This document shows positions 12,092 to 43,624 of a DNA stretch of 64,000 nucleotides, one piece after another. Under the pieces are notes generated by a model that worked only from the letters and a program-made list of their open reading frames with translations, had not been told where the DNA came from and did no database searches. Source of the DNA: Thermodesulfobacteriota bacterium (GTDB lineage: Bacteria; Desulfobacterota; Desulfobacteria; Desulfobacterales; C00003060). Where the stretch lies: the NCBI GenBank assembly GCA_034189385.1, contig JAXHVD010000013.1:68259-132258 (forward strand), read 5' to 3'. The position numbers and the translations under genes are program-made. Position 1 is the first letter of the stretch. Each line of letters opens with the position of its first letter.

Positions 12092-12493
12092 AGACCGATC
12101 TGTAAAGCCCTGAGTGAGTCACGACATCTAAACCGATTGTATTTTAGCGGACGATGGGACCCGACAGTTGGAAAATAGGCTGCAGTTGTGGTCTTGGAGC
12201 GAAAAGAAGACTCTTTTCTGTACATTGTTCAGCAAGGGAAATTTTCCAAACACACCTTGAACCGATTAAGCGAGCGCATTCTCCACAGGAGAGCTACCGC
12301 AGCCCCGTAGGTTCTGCCTGACGGCAGTGCTAACGCGGTGAGGCTGCGGGGTTAGCGAGCGTATATAAAATGAGACATATTCCTTACGGTCGCTGCGAAG
12401 CACTGCCGCTAGGTAGAACATTCCCTGCAGCTTGCTGCAGGGTCTTCAATGGTTTGTGAGCAAATCATCCAATAAGAAGCGAGAGTGGGCATC

Positions 12494-12664
12494 ATGGTCA
12501 GGTATATCATTGGAGCTTTGGCGGGTGCGGCGATTGGGGGCATCATAGGATATTTGGGTAAATGTTCCGGAAACACCTGAGGCATGACGGGCAGCCCCTG
12601 GTCAGGGGCTATTACCGGTGCAATAATCGGGATTATGATTGCCTCTTCCACTGTTTCCGGATAG
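12494..12664 (+). CDS. Candidate small membrane selenoprotein (56 codons, UGA at codon 29, C-x4-U motif)
   Basis: The ATG 12494 frame reads MVRYIIGALAGAAIGGIIGYLGKCSGNT-TGA(12578-12580)-GMTGSPWSGAITGAIIGIMIASSTVSG-TAG(12662). The frame stays open after the TGA and encodes a glycine-zipper helix. A hairpin with a GGUC loop follows the TGA. Confidence 0.55.
12588..12616 (+). promoter_or_regulatory. SECIS-like hairpin downstream of UGA 12578
   Basis: AGCCCCT (12593-12599) pairs with AGGGGCT (12604-12610), giving a perfect 7-bp stem and an apical loop GGUC (12600-12603) at nt 23-26 from the U of UGA. A lower CGG/CCG extension is present. This matches the loop and spacing I recall for the E. coli fdhF SECIS. 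Confidence 0.5.
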
Positions 12665-12834: not shown

Positions 12835-13680
12835 ATGCAAGGAAGGCTCTCAATGAAAATCTTCAAGATCGGGTTTCCTTTGGTGGTTTCGGGTGCCGTG
12901 GCGGCATGTGTCGTGTTGGTGCTCAGGCCCCACGTTCAATACCAGGGGATCGTCGAAGACGTCTCGTCATGGGGTTCCTTTTTCACCGTCTTTGGTGTCA
13001 TCTACGCCATTGTTGCCGGCTTTCTCCTCGTCACTGTTCTGAACCGATACAGCGCTTTGAATTAGACGATCGAAGATGAGCTGAATGCTGTTGAGTGCGT
13101 CCGGGACTTTCTTGTATATTTGGACGACGAAAAACGCGGCGCGAAAACTGCCATTAAACGGGCGCTTGCGAACTACGTGAGGTCTCTGTCCATTAAGGAA
13201 TGGGAAGAGATGGCCGATCCTCGCACGCCGATGAACTCCGACACATCAGAGGAGCTGTACGAAATCATGCGCAAGGGAAAGGGGATACAGGTGACGAGAG
13301 AGCGCGACAGTGTCGTCCTTTCTGCGCTGGTGGAGAACATCTCAGAGATTACGAAAATGCGAACAAGGCGCATTGCACTCGCCAATGAAAGGCTGCCTCC
13401 TAGGCTCCGAATACTGATGGTTTTCATGTCAATTGCTCTCGTGGGCGCCTTTGTCCTCCTGGGCGTTCGGTGCGTATTCACACATGTATTCATTGTCGTA
13501 ACCCTCACCATTTCGATTCACCTTCTCTACATGATCATAGAAGACCTTGATCACCCCTTCCACGGTGTCTGGAACATCAACCGGGCGCCGCTGGACGAAC
13601 TCGCGAAAAGCTTCGAGGATGAGCTGAGAGAGAATCAGACCCATAACAGGCCCAACACTCTGTGGTCGGGGGAGGGTTAG
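12835..13680 (+). pseudogene. DUF4239-like membrane protein interrupted by a single in-frame TAG
   Basis: ORFs 12835-13065 and 13120-13680 are in the same frame. The only stop between them is TAG 13063-13065 (...NRYSALN*TIEDELNAVECV...). The joined product has N- and C-terminal TM helices and a KEWEEM motif typical of DUF4239, as I recall it. Confidence 0.55.
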
Positions 13681-13735: not shown

Positions 13736-14710
13736 TCACAGCCACTTTATCCGCTTGAACCATCCCACCAATAGTACTGCAAGGCCCACAAGGCCTAGAG
13801 CCACGATAGCAAAGGCCCATTTGTATTCTGCTCCCGGAATACCGCCGACATTGATCCCAAGCAGTCCTGTAAGGAGCCCCAAGGGCAAGAATATGGCCGC
13901 TACGATGGAAAGCAAGTACATGGCCTTGTTCATCTGTTCCGACAAACGGTTGTTCAGTTCTTCCTGGGTGACAGCAGCATGCTCACGGGCTGAGTCAATA
14001 TCTTCAACAAAACGTGCCGTGCGTTCCCATACCTCGCGTATGTGCGCTTTGTCCATGTCATCCAGCCATGGAATGCGTTCATTCTGCAACCGTGCAATAA
14101 CATCCCGCTGAGGGGCCACATATCGCCGCAGACTGATGGTCTGGCGCCGCAGGTCGGAAAGCTTGGGTCGTAGTTCCTTGCTTTCGGCAGTGAGCACTGT
14201 GTCTTCCAGTTCATCTACGCTGTCGTCAATTTCAGCCACCACGTCTCCCATCCGGTCTGTTATGCGACGGCAGACCATGATCAGAAAATCAGCCGAAGAG
14301 GTAGGCCCTGTACCGGACTTGATCGCGTTGCCAATGTCGTCAATGGCCATCACGCGCCTGTGTCTCATAGATAGGATGCGATGTTCGGTAAACAACATGC
14401 GCAATGAGACCATATCCTCAGGATCGGCTCCGGGGTTGCAGTTTACCCCCCGCAGTATCAAAAGGAGGCCCTCCTCAGAAAAGACGCAACGGGGCCGTGT
14501 CTCCTCTGCAAGCAAGGATTCCGATAATATGGAACTAAGGCCGCTGTCGTCCGATAACCATTTTTGAACTTTTTCATTGGCATAATCAAGGTGCAACCAC
14601 AGTACCCCTTGCTCCGCAGACCACTGCTTGACTCCTTTCCAATCGATAGCTTGGCCGCCACCCTGACCATCGAGGACATACGCAAATACGAGGCCTTCCT
14701 GTTCGTTCAT
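13736..14710 (-). CDS. zntB: Zinc transporter ZntB (CorA superfamily), copy 1
   Basis: 324 aa. The C-terminal TM pair carries the ZntB-type motif LTGLLGINVGGIPG and the ending ...WFKRIKWL. RBS AAGGGAGGGA. Confidence 0.9.
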   Translation of the reverse strand: MNEQEGLVFAYVLDGQGGGQAIDWKGVKQWSAEQGVLWLHLDYANEKVQKWLSDDSGLSSILSESLLAEETRPRCVFSEEGLLLILRGVNCNPGADPEDMVSLRMLFTEHRILSMRHRRVMAIDDIGNAIKSGTGPTSSADFLIMVCRRITDRMGDVVAEIDDSVDELEDTVLTAESKELRPKLSDLRRQTISLRRYVAPQRDVIARLQNERIPWLDDMDKAHIREVWERTARFVEDIDSAREHAAVTQEELNNRLSEQMNKAMYLLSIVAAIFLPLGLLTGLLGINVGGIPGAEYKWAFAIVALGLVGLAVLLVGWFKRIKWL

Positions 14711-14775
14711 GTTCCGTCCCTCCCTTGGATTGAAGCCCCATGTTTAAGTTGCCGCTGACGAAAACCCATGATCGG

Positions 14776-14804
14776 AATCTAATGGATGCCACAAGACCTG
14801 TCAA
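14776..14804 (-). promoter_or_regulatory. Putative sigma70-type promoter of zntB copy 1
   Basis: On the minus strand: TTGACA (14804-14799), a 17-nt spacer, then TAGATT (14781-14776), about 65 nt upstream of the zntB ATG. Confidence 0.4.
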
Positions 14805-15538
14805 ACACCGGACCTGAATCCAGCCAGATTGCCCACATCATGGCCCTTCCGTCTCATTGCGTGGGGGAAACCCGTCTCAGTACATGGAAAGAAAAGGGCC
14901 ATCCATTTCCTACTCCTTTGCGACGTTTCCCCCACTTGACATTCCTCTGCAATGTATGTAAGCAAAATGCAGACACACCTCTGGAGGGCAGCGAAGACTT
15001 TTTCCCCAGACGGCTTCTGGCAGCGTGCGCCTCTGCATGACTGGTCATTTTTCAGTGTTTTGCGTTGTTGGTCAACACAAGGGTTCGGGGTGAGTTGAGT
15101 TTCTCGTATGGAGGAGGGGTGAATGCGAGTGACTTTGGGACAACGCAATGGCCCAGCTTTGTTACCCCCTCTTTGTGCCCATATGGCACGTGAAATATTG
15201 CTCAACCAGGGGCTACCAATCACAGTGCCTCCTTTCCATGCCACCGGCCGCAGTGACGGCCAAGCAATCTACCTTTGTGGCGAAGAAGAATCACGACCCC
15301 ACCCTGTTTGCAGGCCTTTTCGCACACCTGCCGGCTCCGTCCGGGGTCGGATTGAGAGATGCCCTAATTATCTTAAACCGTTAGGCGAATCGCCGGCACA
15401 ATGTGCGCCTGTTGAAACCCTATGGGGCCGACCTCATCCCTTTGTGATCCATGGAATCGGAATGAAGACACGGGGGCTCAAGCATGGGTGGTCGTCCATG
15501 TTTGTGGCAAGTCTGGTGGAGCGCCCTGGAGAAGATAT

Positions 15539-36754: not shown

Positions 36755-37729
36755 TCACAACCATTTTATCCGCTTGAACCATCCCACCAATAGTACTGCA
36801 AGGCCCACAAGGCCTAGAGCCACGATAGCAAAGGCCCATTTGTACTCTGCGCCTGGAATGCCGCCAACATTGATCCCGAGCAGTCCGGTAAGGAGCCCCA
36901 AGGGCAAGAATATTGCCGCTACGATGGAAAGCAAATACATGGCCTTGTTCATCTGTTCCGACAAACGGTTGTTCAGTTCTTCCTGGGTGACAGCAGCATG
37001 CTCACGGGCTGAGTCAATATCTTCAACAAAACGTGCCGTGCGTTCCCATACCTCGCGTATGTGCGCTTTGTCCATGTCATCCAGCCATGGAATGCGTTCA
37101 TTCTGCAACCGTGCAATAACATCCCGCTGAGGGGCCACATATCGCCGCAGACTGATGGTCTGGCGCCGCAGGTCGGAAAGCTTGGGTCGTAGTTCCTTGC
37201 TTTCGGCAGTGAGCACTGTGTCTTCCAGTTCATCTACGCTGTCGTCAATTTCAGCCACCACGTCTCCCATCCGGTCTGTTATGCGACGGCAGACCATGAT
37301 CAGAAAATCAGCCGAAGAGGTAGGCCCTGTACCGGACTTGATCGCGTTGCCAATGTCGTCAATGGCCATCACGCGCCTGTGTCTCATAGATAGGATGCGA
37401 TGTTCGGTAAACAACATGCGCAATGAGACCATATCCTCAGGATCGGCTCCGGGGTTGCAGTTTACCCCCCGCAGTATCAAAAGGAGGCCCTCCTCAGAAA
37501 AGACGCAACGGGGCCGTGTCTCCTCTGCAAGCAAGGATTCCGATAATATGGAACTAAGGCCGCTGTCGTCCGATAACCATTTTTGAACTTTTTCATTGGC
37601 ATAATCAAGGTGCAACCACAGTACCCCTTGCTCCGCAGACCACTGCTTGACTCCTTTCCAATCGATAGCTTGGCCGCCACCCTGACCATCGAGGACATAC
37701 GCAAATACGAGGCCTTCCTGTTCGTTCAT
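36755..37729 (-). CDS. zntB: Zinc transporter ZntB (CorA superfamily), copy 2
   Basis: The protein is identical to copy 1. About 12 nucleotide differences, all synonymous, are confined to the last ~180 nt of the gene. Confidence 0.9.
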   Translation of the reverse strand: MNEQEGLVFAYVLDGQGGGQAIDWKGVKQWSAEQGVLWLHLDYANEKVQKWLSDDSGLSSILSESLLAEETRPRCVFSEEGLLLILRGVNCNPGADPEDMVSLRMLFTEHRILSMRHRRVMAIDDIGNAIKSGTGPTSSADFLIMVCRRITDRMGDVVAEIDDSVDELEDTVLTAESKELRPKLSDLRRQTISLRRYVAPQRDVIARLQNERIPWLDDMDKAHIREVWERTARFVEDIDSAREHAAVTQEELNNRLSEQMNKAMYLLSIVAAIFLPLGLLTGLLGINVGGIPGAEYKWAFAIVALGLVGLAVLLVGWFKRIKWL

Positions 37730-37794
37730 GTTCCGTCCCTCCCTTGGATTGAAGCCCCATGTTTAAGTTGCCGCTGACGAAAACCCATGATCGG

Positions 37795-37823
37795 AATCTA
37801 ATGGATGCCACAAGACCTGTCAA
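37795..37823 (-). promoter_or_regulatory. Putative sigma70-type promoter of zntB copy 2
   Basis: The sequence is identical to 14776-14804 (TTGACA-17-TAGATT on the minus strand). Confidence 0.4.
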
Positions 37824-38645
37824 ACACCGGACCTGAATCCAGCCAGATTGCCCACATCATGGCCCTTCCGTCTCATTGCGTGGGGGAAACCCGTCTCAGT
37901 ACATGGAAAGAAAAGGGCCATCCATTTCCTACTCCTTTGCGACGTTTCCCCCACTTGACATTCCTCTGCAATGTATGTAAGCAAAATGCAGACACACCTC
38001 TGGAGGGCAGCGAAGACTTTTTCCCCAGACGGCTTCTGGCAGCGTGCGCCTCTGCATGACTGGTCATTTTTCAGTGTTTTGCGTTGTTGGTCAACACAAG
38101 GGTTCGGGGTGAGTTGAGTTTCTCGTATGGAGGAGGGGTGAATGCGAGTGACTTTGGGACAACGCAATGGCCCAGCTTTGTTACCCCCTCTTTGTGCCCA
38201 TATGGCACGTGAAATATTGCTCAACCAGGGGCTACCAATCACAGTGCCTCCTTTCCATGCCACCGGCCGCAGTGACGGCCAAGCAATCTACCTTTGTGGC
38301 GAAGAAGAATCACGACCCCACCCTGTTTGCAGGCCTTTTCGCACACCTGCCGGCTCCGTCCGGGGTCGGATTGAGAGATGCCCTAATTATCTTAAACCGT
38401 TAGGCGAATCGCCGGCACAATGTGCGCCTGTTGAAACCCTATGGGGCCGACCCCATCCCTTTGCGATTCATGGAATCGGAATAGAGATATGTGGCTCAAG
38501 GATCGGTGGGCGTCCATGTTTGTGGCAAGTCTGGTGGGTGGGGCACGCTGGAGAAGACATCTCACAAGACTTCAACATAAAGAGGACAGACTTGACGGCT
38601 TCGTAAAAAGTCGAAAAACACCTCTTTCTTTCATTTAACTTCTGG

Positions 38646-38976: not shown

Positions 38977-40014
38977 ATGTCACAAGCGAAGCCAGGAATT
39001 AATCGTAGGGATTTCATTAAGTTGGGGGCACTCGCTGCTGGCGGGGCGGCTCTTTCAGGAAGGATACCCTTTGCGCAGGCCGCTGGCACAAGCGAAGAGC
39101 CTGACAGCCCCATCTATTTGGCCCTCAACATGTCTAAAGTGGCCAACAACGAGGAGAGCTTTCGCCTGATGAAAAAAGTCGGTCCCAAGGTGTGCATCAC
39201 CACGGCCTCCCATCCCGGATTTGTAGGATTTCAGGCCAACATCCAGACCGGCATCCTCCCCTTAGCTGGTCGGTATGGTGGAGGAAAGGTGCACATGGAA
39301 AAAGAACTCAACCCCATTCGCAACTACCAGTATACCATGTGGAAACGATGGGAAGATCATGACGATTTTCATGCCAAACAATTCAACAGGACCTTTGAAC
39401 TGTGCGGCAGTTGTCTTTCCATGGTCGTTGAAGGGCCGTGGGAGCCTGTGTACAGGATCGTGAAGGCCAAAATGCCTCCCGTGCGGTCCATGGGTCAGAT
39501 TACCGACCTTGGAGTCGACATGCAGCACAAAAAAGAGTTTATCCGTTTTGCCACCCCCATGCGCTGTGTAGCCATGGCAGAGCACACGGTGAAGACTGGC
39601 AGAGAGGCTGATTTTGAACAAGGGGCCATTGCCACCATGGAGGCCCTGTCCGATTCCACAGGATTTCTCGGGTACATGATTCTAAAGCAGATGGGCGTTT
39701 GTGCCTTGGGGAGTTTCATGCTGGATCCCCAATCCATGGGGGAGGCATTGCAGACTCTGGGCGCGAATCCTCCAAAAGATCCCAAACCCCTTTTCAAGAC
39801 ACCCGAGGCCATGCCGAGCCCTCCGGAGTACCTGATCCATACTGAATGGGACGCCGTGGAGATGGCCCGACTCGGTTTTGCCAAGGTCCTGGTCAATCAC
39901 AGGATCAAGAAAATACATGACGATGGGGTCATGGCACACCTTATGCGGGGACCGTACATCATGTTCTTCCAGCCTATGATGGAAGAGCCGGGCTGGCGGG
40001 CCATGCTTGGGTAG
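38977..40014 (+). CDS. sor: Sulfur oxygenase reductase (SOR) homologue with a Tat signal peptide
   Basis: ATG 38977 follows TAGGAGG. The Tat leader is [35 protein letters not shown]. The mature part matches SOR ([49 protein letters not shown]; YGPYI-like [13 protein letters not shown]). The 79 codons upstream in the ORF track are rejected. Confidence 0.85.
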   Translation: [345 protein letters not shown]

Positions 40015-40075: not shown

Positions 40076-40609
40076 ATGAATATGAATCAGACGGCCGGTC
40101 AAAGCGCTTGGAACCCTTATTTGGCAGGCATCTTAAGTGGCTTGGTCCTTGTCCTGTCGGTGTGGGCTTCAGGCAAGTACTTTGGGGCGTCAACCACCTT
40201 TGTTCGCTCCGCAGGCCTCATTGAAAGAGTCTTCACTGCCGAGCGGGTAGCCAAGATGGATTATTTCGTAAAAGAAGTGCCTCAGATCGACTGGCAGTGG
40301 ATGTTTGTAGCAGGCATTTTTTTCGGGTCTCTCTTAGGATCGACCACCTCCGGCAGCTTTCGATGGAAGGCTGTGCCGGACATGTGGGCCGGACGCTTCG
40401 GGCCTAGCCGGTTGAAGCGTGCCGCAGCAGCCTTTCTCGGAGGGCTGGTTGCCATGTTCGGGGCTCGTCTGGCCGATGGGTGACCGAGCGGCCATGGGCT
40501 GGGCGGGTCGGTTCAGCTGGCGGTAAGTGCCTATATTGCTTTGGTCTGCTTCTTCATGGGCGGCATCATCATGGCACGCATCCTCTACAGAGGAGATGGC
40601 CAGAGATGA
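40076..40609 (+). CDS. YeeE/YedE-family sulfur-transport protein, N-half, candidate selenoprotein (UGA at codon 136)
   Basis: ORF 40076-40483 stops at TGA within ...FGARLADG-TGA-PSGHGLGGSVQLAVSAYIALVCFFMGGIIMARILY.... The frame then stays open to TGA 40607-40609, which overlaps the next start (ATGA). The UGA sits where the family has the conserved Cys of G-C-x-S-G-H-G. Confidence 0.6.
40498..40517 (+). promoter_or_regulatory. SECIS-like hairpin downstream of UGA 40481
   Basis: GCUGGGC (40498-40504) pairs with GUUCAGC (40511-40517), giving 5 Watson-Crick and 2 G-U pairs. The apical loop GGGUCG contains GGUC at nt 26-29 from the U of UGA. Confidence 0.4.
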
Positions 40610-41133
40610 CAATCCTAACATACGGTTTGGTCACAGGGGTGCTTTTTGGCTTCTTCTTGCAGAAGGCCAGGGTCATTCGTTATGACAAGCAGCTCGGTGC
40701 CCTGCGCCTGAAAGACATGACAATCGTCAAGTTCATGTTTTCCACCGTCTTGACCGGGATGGTTGGCGTGTACCTATTTGTGGATCTCGGCTTGGCCCAA
40801 CTTTCTGTTAAAACGACAGTCTTGGGCGGCAACATCCTTGGCGGATTGATTTTTGGTCTTGGCTGGGGTTTACTGGGCTACTGCCCTGGCACAGCAGTGG
40901 GTGCCTTGGGTGAAGGCAGATGGGACGGGTTGTGGGGTGTCCTTGGCATGCTTGCTGGTGCGGCGCTCTTTGCCGAGGCCTATCCGATTTTCAAGGGGAC
41001 CGTTCTCACGTGGGGCGCTTTCGACAAGATCACCCTACCTCAGATTCTGAGGGTGAACCATTGGATTGTCATCGGCCTCTTTGTTGTCGGAGGATTGAGC
41101 CTCTTTGGGTGGTTTGAAAAGAAGGGCTTGTGA
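40606..41133 (+). CDS. YeeE/YedE-family sulfur-transport protein, C-half
   Basis: 175 aa with four TM helices and the motif GLGWGLLGYCPGTAVGALGEG. Its start overlaps the stop of the extended upstream gene. Confidence 0.8.
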   Translation: MTILTYGLVTGVLFGFFLQKARVIRYDKQLGALRLKDMTIVKFMFSTVLTGMVGVYLFVDLGLAQLSVKTTVLGGNILGGLIFGLGWGLLGYCPGTAVGALGEGRWDGLWGVLGMLAGAALFAEAYPIFKGTVLTWGAFDKITLPQILRVNHWIVIGLFVVGGLSLFGWFEKKGL

Positions 41134-41292: not shown

Positions 41293-42318
41293 ATGGCACT
41301 TCGTTTGATTGAAATAGTCCTTCCTGAGGATACGGCAAAGGAGGTCCAAGACGTCTTGGAAGAATCTCAGGTCAACCAGGTGTGGCTCGAGAAAAATTCC
41401 GACAAACAGATTCTTATACAGTTGCTTGTCCCGGCACAAAAGTCGGAAGCTGTGTTGGACGTGTTAGAAAAGCGCTTTTCTACACGAGAGGGTTTCACTA
41501 TTGTACTTCTGCCAGTCGAGGCAGCCTTGCCCCGATCAGAGGAGCCTGAACCAGAATCTTCATATCCGGAAGACCAAGCATCTTCGGGAGAACCTGCACA
41601 GACGAAAATAGGGCGCATATCCCGTGAGGAGCTGTACCATGACGTACTCGATGTTACCCAGTTTTCCAAGGTGTTCTTTGTCATGGTCGTCCTGTCGTCT
41701 TTGGTGGCAGCCATTGGGATTCTGCGAGACAATGTTGCTATCATTATAGGGGCAATGGTCATCGCCCCGCTGCTGGGGCCGAACGTGGCTCTTTCTCTGG
41801 CCACCACCCTGGGAGACGAGAAGCTGGGTCGGACGGCGTTGAAGACCCTGTTAGTCGGTATTTTGGTCGTCACAGCGGTCTCTGTTTCTGTGGGCGTTTT
41901 CGTCCCATTTGATATTACAACTCTTCATGAAGTTATCACCAGAACTGAAGTGGGGTTGGGAGATATTGCCCTTGCCTTATCATCTGGAATGGCTGGCACG
42001 TTATCCTTCACGACAGGCCTCTCAACCACATTGATCGGTGTCATGGTGGCCGTGGCCTTGCTTCCACCTCTGGTGACGTTTGGACTACTATGCGGCGCTC
42101 ATGAGATCTCTATGGCAATGGGTGCCCTGCTGCTCTTTGTGACCAACGTTGTCTGTATCAACGTTTCAGGGGTTGCCACATTTCTGATACAAGGCGTCCG
42201 GCCCATATCATGGTGGGAAGCGACCACTGCGAAAAGGGCAACCCGGAAGGCCATGCTCATTTGGGGGCTGTTGCTTGTCGCCCTTGTCTTGTTGATTCTC
42301 TTTTCCCAGAGGGCGTGA
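41293..42318 (+). CDS. DUF389 / TIGR00341-family membrane protein
   Basis: The N-terminal soluble domain (MALRLIEIVLPEDTAKEVQDVLEE...) is followed by the hydrophobic DUF389 domain (IIIGAMVIAPLLGPNVALSLA...). Confidence 0.7.
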   Translation: MALRLIEIVLPEDTAKEVQDVLEESQVNQVWLEKNSDKQILIQLLVPAQKSEAVLDVLEKRFSTREGFTIVLLPVEAALPRSEEPEPESSYPEDQASSGEPAQTKIGRISREELYHDVLDVTQFSKVFFVMVVLSSLVAAIGILRDNVAIIIGAMVIAPLLGPNVALSLATTLGDEKLGRTALKTLLVGILVVTAVSVSVGVFVPFDITTLHEVITRTEVGLGDIALALSSGMAGTLSFTTGLSTTLIGVMVAVALLPPLVTFGLLCGAHEISMAMGALLLFVTNVVCINVSGVATFLIQGVRPISWWEATTAKRATRKAMLIWGLLLVALVLLILFSQRA

Positions 42319-42394
42319 GCCTGACCGAAATGTGCCAGATTGACTAACAATTTCGATGATTTATTTTCTTACACATTCATTGAAGGGGACTATT

Positions 42395-43255
42395 ATGTCG
42401 GACGTCATTGCCATCATTTTGGGCCGTCTAGGAAAGATATTCGACCCGCAGTCCTTGGGCAATCTTCTTGTCGGTTGGCTGATGAACCTGGTTGTGGCCA
42501 TGGCAATTATGGCAGCCTTCTACTTGTTGTGGCTCATGGCAAAGGTGGTTCTGGGCTTCACGCTACGCCGGAAAGTCGATCCAACGAGTTTTTCCTTTAT
42601 TGAAACCATTCTTAAGTTCTCTCTGTTAATCATCGGGGTCATCACAGCACTGGATTCTGCCGGCATCAAAACCTCGGCCCTGTTGACGTCACTGGGCATT
42701 GCGGGGCTGACCATCGGATTTGCTGCACGGGATGCCCTTTCCAATCTCATTTCAGGCATCCTGATCTTCATTGATCGCCCCTTTGTCCTCGGCGATCTGG
42801 TGGAGATTGACGGTGCCTACGGCAAGGTCGAGCGCATCACCCTGCGGTCGACGCGGGTAGTGACTTCCGACGGCCGGATGTTGGCCGTGCCCAATACGGA
42901 AATCATCAACAAGACTGTGGCATCTTATACAAATTTTCCCCATCTTCGTCTCGATGTCGGCGTGACCGTCGGTGTCAAGGAAGACCTGGAGCAGGTCCGC
43001 CAGCTGTTGCTGGCGCTGCCGAAGGACGATCCCGCCTTTCTTGACGATCCCGCCCCACGGGTCGTGGCGACAGCGCTCAATGACTACAATGTCGCCATGG
43101 AACTTCAGGTCTGGCTTGACGATGAGCGCCGTCACGTTGAAAAACGTTATGAGTTGCGGGAAAAAGTATTCAATACGCTAACGCGGGCAGGTGTGGACTT
43201 GCCTTTCGAAACGCTGCAACTACAACCTGTTGACGTCAAGGTGCACGGGCAGTAA
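42395..43255 (+). CDS. Small-conductance mechanosensitive channel (MscS family)
   Basis: ATG 42395 follows GAAGGGGA. Three TM helices are followed by the MscS beta-domain signature NLISGILIFIDRPFVLGDLVEIDGAYGKVERITLRSTRVVTSDGRMLAVPN. Confidence 0.85.
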   Translation: MSDVIAIILGRLGKIFDPQSLGNLLVGWLMNLVVAMAIMAAFYLLWLMAKVVLGFTLRRKVDPTSFSFIETILKFSLLIIGVITALDSAGIKTSALLTSLGIAGLTIGFAARDALSNLISGILIFIDRPFVLGDLVEIDGAYGKVERITLRSTRVVTSDGRMLAVPNTEIINKTVASYTNFPHLRLDVGVTVGVKEDLEQVRQLLLALPKDDPAFLDDPAPRVVATALNDYNVAMELQVWLDDERRHVEKRYELREKVFNTLTRAGVDLPFETLQLQPVDVKVHGQ

Positions 43256-43267
43256 GGCCGGCAGCTG

Positions 43268-43624
43268 TTTGTGGATCTTGGCTTGGTCCAACTTGTTGTT
43301 AAAGCGACAGTTGTAGGCAGCAACATCCTTGGCGGATTGATTTTTGGTCTTGGCTGGGGTTTGCTGGGCTACTGTCCTGCCACAGCAGTGGGTGCCTTAG
43401 GAGAAGGCAGATGGGACGGGTTGTGGGGTGTCCTCGGCATGCTTGCTGGTGCGGCCCTCTTTGCCGAGGCCTATCCGGTTTTCAAGGGGACCGTTCTCGC
43501 GTGGGGCGCTTTTGACAAGATCACTCTGCCTCAGATTCTCCGGGTGAACCATTGGGTTATCATGGCTTTGTTTGTTGTTGGAGGAGTGAGCCTTTTTGGG
43601 TGGTTTGAAAAAGGGAGGCTCTGA
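43268..43624 (+). pseudogene. Truncated duplicate of the yedE C-half gene (last 117 codons only)
   Basis: ~90% nucleotide identity to 40777-41133 at an offset of 2491. It begins immediately after the mscS stop and has no RBS or native start. The ORF-track Met is an in-frame GTG. Confidence 0.75.

What the first reader, a model, noticed from the sequence alone, without database searches (positions are those of the whole stretch)
40076..40609. YeeE/YedE sulfur-transporter half with UGA at the conserved pore cysteine (candidate selenoprotein)
The annotated ORF stops at TGA 40481-40483. The same frame then runs 41 more sense codons that encode a plausible TM helix (PSGHGLGGSVQLAVSAYIALVCFFMGGIIMARILY) and ends at a TGA overlapping the next gene start (ATGA, 40606-40609). 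The local sequence FGARLADG-[UGA]-PSGHGLGG matches the family motif I recall as G-G-C-(T)-S-G-H-G, so the UGA replaces the conserved Cys. A Cys/Sec pair of this kind is the classic signature of a genuine selenoprotein. Fourteen nt downstream a hairpin (40498-40517) presents GGUC in its apical loop ~25 nt from the UGA, similar to the E. coli fdhF SECIS geometry. The same GGUC-loop arrangement occurs independently at 12578-12610. I cannot tell from memory whether Sec-containing YeeE/YedE proteins have been catalogued.
Basis: partly seen in the sequence, partly recalled or inferred. Interest (0 to 1): 0.75.

Follow-up and report, generated by a model that had tools for sequence, protein, structure and literature searches.

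The report
Selenocysteine-containing half of a sulfur transporter
The in-frame TGA at 40481-40483 very probably encodes selenocysteine at a key pore cysteine of a two-gene YeeE/YedE-type sulfur transporter, but this selenoprotein family is already listed in published catalogues, so the gene is real and not new.

Summary
The ORF stops at TGA 40481-83. The same frame runs 41 more sense codons to a TGA that overlaps the next gene's ATG.

- **Cys/Sec pair.** Full-length homologues (172-177 aa) have an invariant Cys at this codon (FGARLADG-C-PSGHG). The position aligns with Cys293 of the crystallised S. thermophila YeeE, the essential cysteine that contacts thiosulfate.
- **Conservation.** Of the 80 closest species-level genomes, 60 carry TGA here and 20 carry TGC/TGT. 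Three near-identical metagenome contigs also carry TGA. The post-TGA frame is under purifying selection (pN/pS 0.17).
- **SECIS.** The hairpin at 40497-40518 has an 8-bp stem and a GGGUCG loop 21 nt after the UGA. It fits the published bacterial SECIS model. It pairs in 96.7% of cells in TGA sequences, with GC/AU covariation at synonymous sites, but in only 70% of cells in Cys sequences.
- **Partner gene.** The downstream gene is the PmpB-like other half.
- **Prior knowledge.** Reviews from 2022 and 2026 already list Sec-containing YeeE/YedE proteins (PF04143, motif GUxSG).
- **Not tested.** The Sec machinery could not be checked beyond the window.
- **Second site.** The UGA at 12578 sits in a DUF6132 gene. 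It looks like another selenoprotein and is absent from the 2026 catalogue under that name.

The parts
40082..40609 (+). Gene for the Sec-containing PmpA-like half of a split YeeE/YedE transporter. It is 175 aa from ATG 40082, or 177 aa if ATG 40076 is the start.
   Evidence: The translation reads through TGA 40481-83. PF04143 scores 78.9 bits over profile positions 170-310 of 310. Homologues are 62-75% identical and 172-177 aa long. The AAGAGG Shine-Dalgarno sequence lies 7-8 nt before 40082, and gene calls in relatives start there.
40481..40483 (+). UGA read as selenocysteine. It is equivalent to Cys293 of S. thermophila YeeE.
   Evidence: The Cys column is invariant in full-length homologues. 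The codon is TGA in 60 of 80 species-level genome loci and in 3 metagenome contigs, and TGC/TGT in the other 20 genome loci. It aligns to C293 of 6LEO. The Pfam score is 78.9 bits with C, 71.0 with A and 68.6 with W.
40497..40518 (+). bSECIS-type hairpin. The 8-bp stem is 40497-40504 paired with 40511-40518. The apical loop GGGUCG is 40505-40510 and begins 21 nt after the UGA.
   Evidence: Energy is -11.5 kcal/mol, z = -3.06. In the window-type variant 100% of cells pair, with AU:5 and GC:4 at one pair. In the family-wide form 96.7% pair across 57 distinct TGA sequences, against 70.2% in 19 Cys sequences. It meets the constraints quoted from PMC13188914.
40484..40606 (+). The 41 post-UGA codons. 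They encode the loop motif PSGHG and the last transmembrane helix.
   Evidence: pN/pS is 0.167 over 1891 pairs of TGA-bearing loci. The extension is 41 codons long in 47 of 64 sequences and 39-42 in 60 of 64. This segment adds 28 bits to the Pfam match.
40606..41133 (+). PmpB-like partner half (175 aa), with Cys93 equivalent to Cys91 of YeeE. Its start overlaps the stop of the Sec gene (ATGA).
   Evidence: PF04143 matches profile positions 16-145 and DUF6691 also matches. It aligns to 6LEO residues 4-119, including GGC91. The gene immediately follows the Sec/Cys gene in nearly all loci whose contig extends that far. It is the NCBI protein MDY6838453.1.
38977..40014 (+). Upstream gene for a sulfur oxygenase reductase homologue (345 aa) with an N-terminal twin-arginine signal. 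It may supply the transporter's substrate in this lineage.
   Evidence: PF07682 SOR matches at E = 3.5e-142 and a TAT_signal is detected. The product is MDY6838451.1. It is adjacent to the Sec gene only in the close relatives L081-L083 and lies nearby in L001.

Best explanation
**What it is.** TGA 40481-83 is a selenocysteine codon in a gene that encodes one half of a two-subunit YeeE/YedE-family membrane transporter.

**How recoding works.** When the ribosome reaches the UGA, the hairpin at 40497-40518 is presumably bound by SelB carrying Sec-tRNA(Sec). The hairpin's loop starts with G residues 21 nt downstream of the UGA. Sec is inserted and translation continues for 41 codons to the true stop, which overlaps the start of the partner gene.

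**The protein.** The 175-177-aa selenoprotein corresponds to the C-terminal half of full-length YeeE and is PmpA-like. It pairs with the downstream 175-aa protein, which corresponds to the N-terminal half and is PmpB-like. Together they would rebuild the hourglass pore.
- The selenol sits where Cys293 of YeeE contacts thiosulfate at the periplasmic mouth.
- Cys93 of the partner sits at the Cys91 position.

**Likely function.** The pair probably imports thiosulfate or zero-valent/sulfane sulfur.

**Shown and inferred.**
- Shown: the Cys/Sec pairing, conservation of the UGA, selection on the downstream frame, the conserved and covarying hairpin, and homology to both halves of YeeE.
- Inferred: SelB dependence, heterodimer formation, the substrate, and any catalytic advantage of Sec.
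For: - **Cys/Sec pair.** Full-length homologues have an invariant Cys at the UGA position.
- **Conserved UGA.** TGA occurs at this codon in 60 of 80 species-representative genomes and in 3 metagenome contigs. TGC/TGT occurs in the remaining 20 genomes.
- **Downstream frame.** The post-TGA frame keeps its length and is under purifying selection (pN/pS 0.167, against 0.265 just upstream). Pfam homology extends through the UGA to the end of the profile, and a Cys there is worth 8-10 bits.
- **Hairpin.** It fits all four bSECIS constraints quoted. In TGA sequences 96.7% of cells pair, and one pair shows GC:32, AU:20, GU:3 at synonymous sites. The same structure pairs in only 70.2% of cells in Cys orthologues, where that pair is broken in 13 of 19. 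Codon choice in the hairpin is fixed only in the TGA group, for example Gly GGT in 57 of 64 against a mixed set.
- **Position in the structure.** The Sec position aligns to C293 of 6LEO. C293 contacts thiosulfate and is essential (PMC7449682).
- **Split architecture.** It matches the PmpA/PmpB description in PMC11582611.
- **TGA still works as a stop.** It ends this same gene, so the genetic code is not reassigned.
- **Second UGA gene.** A second UGA gene with a hairpin lies in the same window at 12485-12664. The same TGA is present in 5 diverged metagenome relatives, which argues that this organism decodes Sec.
- **Catalogued family.** PF04143 with motif GUxSG is listed, and this gene has D-G-U-P-S-G.
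Against: - No selA, selB, selD or tRNA-Sec gene lies in the 64-kb window. The rest of the genome could not be reached.
- No Rfam family matches the hairpin. This is expected, because bacterial SECIS elements are diverse.
- The hairpin lies in a strongly conserved coding segment, so part of its sequence conservation reflects the protein. The contrast with Cys orthologues and the changes at synonymous sites address this, but most stem pairs never vary.
- The review text examined here describes this family only as predicted to contain Sec; I found no report of selenium incorporation into any member, though I did not search for one specifically.
Confidence: 0.9

Rival explanations
1. The TGA is an ordinary stop. 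The gene makes a 133-135-aa truncated protein, or is a pseudogene, and the downstream open frame is a relic.
For: Gene callers produced 133-aa products for this gene and its close relatives. Forty-one sense codons can occur by chance. The Sec machinery was not seen in the window.
Against: - The same TGA, followed by the same 39-42-codon frame, is kept in 60 of 64 TGA-bearing sequences from different species, with pN/pS of 0.167.
- The truncated product would lack the pore cysteine motif and the last transmembrane helix, which are worth 28 Pfam bits.
- A relic would not keep a hairpin with compensatory changes only where TGA is present.
Confidence: 0.03
2. The UGA is read through, but not as Sec. 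Near-cognate Trp, Cys or another residue is inserted, and the hairpin acts as a generic read-through stimulator.
For: Sec machinery is unverified for this genome. No protein-level data exist.
Against: - The replaced residue is specifically an essential Cys, which is the hallmark of Cys/Sec pairs.
- The hairpin has the spacing, loop size and leading G residues of bSECIS elements.
- The host phylum and the taxa carrying TGA (Desulfobacterales, Syntrophales, Syntrophorhabdaceae, Nitrospirota) are, from established knowledge, rich in Sec users.
- Published catalogues already list this family as a selenoprotein.
Confidence: 0.05
3. The TGA is an assembly or sequencing error for TGC/TGT in this metagenome-assembled genome.
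For: The source is a MAG contig. A single base separates TGA from TGC/TGT.
Against: The identical TGA is present in 63 independent assemblies, including three contigs that are 89-92% identical from different samples. The hairpin specific to TGA forms is also present here.
Confidence: 0.01

Closest known systems
[quoted passage not shown]
   Same: The Pfam family is the same. The Sec motif is the same: the window has D-G-U-P-S-G-H-G. It is a predicted transporter selenoprotein.
   Different: Nothing essential differs. I could not retrieve the example sequence to confirm that it is the same half-size subfamily. This gene comes from an uncultured Thermodesulfobacteriota MAG and sits next to a SOR gene.
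PmpA/PmpB split YeeE/YedE proteins (Serratia sp. ATCC 39006; discussed in PMC11582611)
   Same: There are two adjacent half-size genes. One aligns to the C-terminal half of YeeE and carries the Cys293-equivalent residue. The other aligns to the N-terminal half and carries the Cys91-equivalent residue. A heterodimer has been proposed.
   Different: The halves here are about 175 aa, not about 130 aa. The Cys293-equivalent residue is Sec. The gene order is C-terminal-half homologue first, with overlapping stop and start codons.
TsuA/YeeE thiosulfate importer (S. thermophila, PDB 6LEO/6LEP/8J4C; E. coli YeeE)
   Same: The fold family is the same. The loop motifs carrying C91 and C293, which line the thiosulfate path and are essential, are conserved.
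   Different: - The protein is split into two polypeptides.
- A C22 equivalent was not looked for; the PmpA/PmpB-type halves are described as having one conserved cysteine each.
- No YeeD/TusA-like partner gene was found in the window or among the recurrent neighbours.
- NCBIfam TsuA models score far below their cut-offs (39.3 against 400 and 31.8 against 645).
- The substrate is therefore not established.
E. coli fdhF-type bacterial SECIS and the bSECIS consensus model
   Same: The stem-loop lies inside the coding sequence directly after the UGA. The apical loop begins with G-G, lies 21 nt from the UGA, and the energy is below -7.5 kcal/mol.
   Different: The sequence is unrelated to fdhF. 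No bulged U was assessed. SelB binding has not been tested.

Membership tests
Bacterial selenoprotein gene (SelB/SECIS-dependent UGA recoding) | An in-frame UGA aligns with Cys in homologues (a Cys/Sec pair) | tested here: met
   The Cys column is invariant in 18 full-length homologues. At the same codon, 20 genome loci have TGC/TGT and 60 have TGA.
Bacterial selenoprotein gene (SelB/SECIS-dependent UGA recoding) | Coding potential is conserved downstream of the UGA | tested here: met
   pN/pS is 0.167 over the 36 post-TGA codons in 1891 pairs. The extension is 39-42 codons long in 60 of 64 sequences. The Pfam match runs to the end of the profile.
Bacterial selenoprotein gene (SelB/SECIS-dependent UGA recoding) | A bSECIS element is present: 3-9 nt apical loop, 4-16 bp stem, G in the first two loop positions, 16-37 nt from the UGA, MFE <= -7.5 kcal/mol | tested here: met
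   The loop is 6 nt (GGGUCG), the stem is 8 bp, the spacing is 21 nt and the energy is -11.5 kcal/mol (criteria). Conservation and covariation are specific to TGA forms.
Bacterial selenoprotein gene (SelB/SECIS-dependent UGA recoding) | selA, selB, selC (tRNA-Sec) and selD are present in the same genome | not testable with these tools
   None lies in the 64-kb window. The source contig is 134.5 kb, and the rest of the MAG could not be fetched. There is indirect support from a second UGA-plus-hairpin gene in the window.
Bacterial selenoprotein gene (SelB/SECIS-dependent UGA recoding) | Selenium is detected in the protein (75Se labelling or MS) | not testable with these tools
   This requires an experiment.
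YeeE/YedE family (Pfam PF04143 Sulf_transp) | The score is above the Pfam gathering threshold | tested here: met
   78.9 bits against a cut-off of 27 for the joined product. The partner gene scores 46.3 bits.
Catalogued Sec-containing YeeE/YedE selenoprotein family | The Sec lies in the motif G-U-x-S-G | tested here: met
   The window reads ADG-U-P-S-G-HG. The motif is as listed in PMC13188914.
PmpA/PmpB-type split YeeE | Two adjacent half-size genes align to the C- and N-terminal halves of YeeE and carry the Cys293- and Cys91-equivalent residues | tested here: met
   Searches give the alignments. The description is in PMC11582611. The partner follows in nearly all loci whose contig extends that far.
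PmpA/PmpB-type split YeeE | Each half is about 130 aa with four predicted transmembrane helices | tested here: not met
   The halves here are 175-177 aa and 175 aa. The number of helices was not computed.
TsuA thiosulfate transporter (NCBIfam NF052577 / NF041049) | The score is above the curated equivalog cut-off | tested here: not met
   39.3 against 400 and 31.8 against 645. It is related, but it is not a TsuA equivalog.
YedE/FdhT selenium-metabolism membrane protein (NF033796, TIGR04112) | The score is above the curated cut-off | tested here: not met
   23.3 against 350 for the Sec half. The partner scores 31.6 against 200.

The most novel reading that the evidence does not exclude
Sec naturally replaces the Cys293-equivalent pore residue, and it does so in most of the closest homologues. 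A selenol is largely deprotonated at physiological pH, so it would be a poor donor for the S-H...S hydrogen-bond relay proposed for YeeE. This could mean that the pore cysteine acts as a nucleophile. It would form a transient Se-S adduct with thiosulfate or sulfane sulfur, so that these transporters move sulfur by covalent relay rather than by simple conduction. In this lineage the transporter could be coupled to a TAT-exported sulfur oxygenase reductase that generates the substrate in the periplasm.
Probability: 0.15. Interest if true: 0.6.

Novelty: already known. Interest (0 to 1): 0.3.

Why it matters
- **Annotation.** Gene callers split or truncate this gene to 133 aa and lose the pore motif and the last helix. 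Anyone annotating Thermodesulfobacteriota or Nitrospirota genomes should expect the Sec form, because it is the majority among the closest homologues (60 of 80).
- **Mechanism.** The Sec sits exactly at the thiosulfate-contacting, essential Cys293 position of a structurally characterised transporter. This gives a natural chemical probe for whether that cysteine acts by hydrogen bonding or by nucleophilic chemistry.
- **Prior status.** The family is catalogued, and the review text examined here describes it only as predicted to contain Sec. The finding therefore confirms and details something known rather than revealing something new.

Tried and rejected
- **Rfam.** The search at gathering thresholds over the whole window found nothing. 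The search at E <= 10 around both UGA sites returned no SECIS-type match.
- **Single-sequence folding.** Folding 71 nt gave z = -0.29 and was uninformative. Only the 24-nt hairpin and the comparative analysis were informative.
- **Reaching the rest of the source contig.** Exact-protein look-ups failed for four window proteins. The search for Sec machinery therefore could not go beyond the window.
- **Homologues of the 59-aa DUF6132 candidate.**
  - The word-indexed protein search found none.
  - The protein-guided metagenome scan found none.
  - A degenerate DNA pattern scan finally recovered 5 relatives.
- **Original references.** The references cited by the reviews for the YeeE/YedE selenoprotein (PMC2398784, PMC5029168) do not name the family in their main text. 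The catalogue claim therefore rests on the two reviews.
- **Genetic-code reassignment, considered and rejected.** TGA terminates this same gene and aligns with Cys, not Trp or Gly.
- **Independently translated 41-codon ORF, considered and rejected.** That segment has no start codon at its beginning.

Full report
**1. Observation**

- ORF 40076..40483 ends at TGA 40481-83.
- The same frame continues for 41 sense codons to TGA 40607-09.
- That TGA overlaps ATG 40606 of the next gene (ATGA).

The AAGAGG Shine-Dalgarno sequence and the gene calls in relatives favour ATG 40082 as the start. This gives a 175-aa product rather than 177 aa.

With Cys placed at the UGA, the joined product matches Pfam PF04143 (Sulf_transp) over residues 5-165, to the very end of the profile, at 78.9 bits. 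The 135-aa truncated product scores 50.7 bits and stops at profile position 280 of 310. With Ala or Trp at the position the score drops to 71.0 or 68.6 bits, so the profile expects Cys there.

**2. Cys/Sec pair and conservation of the UGA**

A protein search returned 3604 homologues. The best full-length ones are 172-177 aa and 62-75% identical. In an alignment of 18 full-length homologues the UGA falls on an invariant Cys, in FGARLADG-C-PSGHGLSG.

The three closest database proteins (91-92% identical) were called as 133 aa ending in ARLADG. Their contigs (L081-L083) show the same TGA followed by the same open frame.

I then scanned one genome per species. Of the 80 best loci, 60 carry TGA at this codon and 20 carry TGC or TGT.
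- TGA forms occur in Desulfobacterales, Syntrophales, Syntrophorhabdaceae, Thermodesulfovibrionales/Nitrospirota and others.
- Cys forms are mostly Geobacter and Desulfuromonas relatives, Desulfovibrio and two Firmicutes-type MAGs.

Among TGA loci the downstream extension is 41 codons long in 47 of 64 and 39-42 in 60 of 64. Across 1891 sequence pairs the 36 codons after the TGA have pN/pS of 0.167, compared with 0.265 for the 36 codons before it. The segment after the UGA is therefore translated and under selection. TGA also terminates this same gene, so the code is standard.

**3. SECIS element**

In the window, 40497-40504 pairs with 40511-40518 (8 bp). The loop is 6 nt (GGGUCG) and begins 21 nt after the UGA. 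The energy is -11.5 kcal/mol and z = -3.06.

This satisfies the bSECIS model quoted in PMC13188914: 3-9 nt loop, 4-16 bp stem, G in the first two loop positions, 16-37 nt spacing, and MFE <= -7.5 kcal/mol.

| Sequence set | Structure | Cells paired | Pair 18-37 |
|---|---|---|---|
| 57 distinct TGA sequences | 9-bp hairpin with one bulge | 96.7% | GC:32, AU:20, GU:3, unpaired:2 |
| 19 distinct Cys orthologues | same structure | 70.2% | broken in 13 of 19 |
| 9 distinct window-type sequences (Val codon GUU, shifted register, no bulge) | 8-bp hairpin | 100% | AU:5, GC:4 |

- In the TGA set, pair 18-37 involves the third base of a Gly codon and the first base of a Leu codon. A second pair shows CG:53, UA:2, UG:2.
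- Codon use inside the hairpin is nearly fixed only in the TGA group. For example, one Gly codon is GGT in 57 of 64 TGA sequences, against GGC 9, GGT 8 and GGG 3 in the Cys group. Another Gly codon is never GGC in the TGA group (GGG 40, GGA 23, GGT 1) but is GGC in 10 of 20 Cys sequences.
- One Cys locus (L037) still has the intact hairpin, which suggests a recent Sec-to-Cys change.

Rfam has no matching family.

**4. What the protein is**

The Sec half aligns to residues 232-329 of S. thermophila YeeE/TsuA (PDB 6LEO; profile E = 1.8e-8). The UGA falls on Cys293. The downstream 175-aa gene (40606-41133) aligns to residues 4-119, and its Cys93 falls on Cys91.

In the crystal structure C293 contacts thiosulfate at the periplasmic mouth. 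C91A and C293A abolish complementation (PMC7449682).

PMC11582611 describes short PmpA/PmpB proteins that match the C- and N-terminal halves of YeeE. Each has one conserved Cys (C293- and C91-equivalent) and they are proposed to form a heterodimer. The window pair has this architecture, but the halves are about 175 aa rather than about 130 aa.

The partner gene immediately follows the Sec/Cys gene in nearly all loci whose contig extends that far.

NCBIfam TsuA and YedE/FdhT models score far below their cut-offs. The pair is therefore a relative of these proteins, not an equivalog of the thiosulfate or selenium transporters.

**5. Context**

The window comes from a 134.5-kb contig of an NCBI Thermodesulfobacteriota MAG.

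- **Upstream gene.** It encodes a sulfur oxygenase reductase homologue with a twin-arginine signal. The linkage is specific to this lineage: it is seen in L081-L083, and the gene lies nearby in L001.
- **Other loci.** The most common further neighbour, in 18 loci, is a pyridine-nucleotide disulfide oxidoreductase of about 480 aa.
- **Reading.** Both neighbours fit traffic in thiosulfate or zero-valent sulfur. PmpAB-like proteins have been linked to uptake of zero-valent sulfur (cited in PMC11582611). The substrate remains an inference.
- **NCBI accessions.** The accessions for SOR and the partner are MDY6838451.1 and MDY6838453.1. Neither truncated product is attributed to NCBI. The intervening accession is therefore probably the full-length selenoprotein. 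This is an inference.

**6. Sec machinery**

The window contains no tRNA genes and no SelA, SelB or SelD domains. I could not reach the rest of the genome.

Indirect support comes from a second UGA gene in the window at 12485-12664, with TGA at 12578-80.
- The joined 59-aa product matches Pfam DUF6132 across the UGA. The score is 44.4 bits with Cys, 39.7 with Ala and 37.8 with Trp.
- A 7-bp hairpin with a GGUC loop follows 19 nt after the UGA.
- Five diverged metagenome relatives carry the same TGA, the same open downstream frame and, in four of the five, a comparable 6-7-bp hairpin with a 4-nt G-G-N-C loop.

**7. Comparison with what is known**

[quoted passage not shown] They name it among predicted Sec-containing transporter subunits. 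The window gene has G-U-P-S-G.

The kind is therefore already known, and this gene is one more member. This analysis adds four things:
- the mapping of Sec onto Cys293 of the solved structure;
- the finding that the Sec form predominates among the closest homologues;
- a covariation-supported SECIS with two registers;
- the link to the PmpA/PmpB-type split architecture and to a SOR neighbour.

**8. Verdict**

Interest is modest (0.3) because the family is already catalogued. The open points are the Sec machinery in this genome, protein-level proof and the substrate.

Noticed in passing
window 12485-12664 (+), TGA at 12578-12580, hairpin about 12593-12610: This is a second candidate selenoprotein: a 59-aa glycine-zipper membrane protein of Pfam DUF6132 with the motif C-S-G-N-T-U-G-M-T-G-S-P-W. 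The Pfam match spans the UGA and scores 44.4 bits with Cys, 39.7 with Ala and 37.8 with Trp. A 7-bp hairpin with a GGUC loop follows the UGA. Five diverged metagenome relatives (L102, L116, L123, L124, L169) all carry the same TGA with an open downstream frame. DUF6132/PF19628 does not appear in the 2026 selenoprotein catalogue and no NCBIfam model matches. It may be an uncatalogued selenoprotein family.
   Followed up: partly
window 38977-40014 (+): This is a sulfur oxygenase reductase homologue (PF07682, E = 3.5e-142) with an N-terminal twin-arginine (TAT) signal, in a Thermodesulfobacteriota MAG. It lies directly upstream of the Sec transporter gene. As far as I recall, known SORs are cytoplasmic, oxygen-dependent enzymes, so an exported one in this lineage is unusual. 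By eye the motifs VGPKVC, H..DFH, LCGSC and GPWEP are present. The residue roles are from memory.
   Followed up: partly
window 13736-15473 and 36755-38492: This is a 1.74-kb direct repeat at 98.9% identity. It contains a CorA-family gene whose two copies encode identical 324-aa proteins, plus about 760 bp of flanking sequence. The copy at 36755 is the one with conserved synteny to the SOR/transporter locus (L081).
   Followed up: partly
window 43256-43622 (compared with 40765-41131), and 41293-43255: This is a 367-nt copy, 87.7% identical, of the 3' end of the PmpB-like gene. It forms a 117-aa fragment ORF at 43271-43624. In the relative L082 the M48 peptidase gene directly follows pmpB. The DUF389 and MscS genes (41293-43255) therefore look like an insertion flanked by the duplicated gene end.
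   Followed up: partly
window 12835-13065 and 13120-13680 (+): The two ORFs are in the same frame and are separated by an in-frame TAG at 13063-13065. Together they cover a bestrophin-like domain; the second part matches profile positions 85-232 of 232. This is a pseudogene, an assembly error or an interrupted gene.
   Followed up: no
L037:469-516: This is a Cys (TGC) orthologue in a Syntrophus MAG. It retains the complete SECIS-type hairpin seen in the TGA forms, which suggests a recent Sec-to-Cys conversion.
   Followed up: no
Loci L001-L080, about 1.4 kb downstream of the Sec/Cys codon: In 18 loci the transporter pair is followed by a pyridine-nucleotide disulfide oxidoreductase of about 480 aa (Pyr_redox_2 plus dimerisation domain). 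It looks like a CoA-disulfide or persulfide reductase. In 14 loci a protein with a cNMP-binding domain follows. One TGA locus has 233 sense codons after the TGA, which may be a fusion of the two halves.
   Followed up: partly
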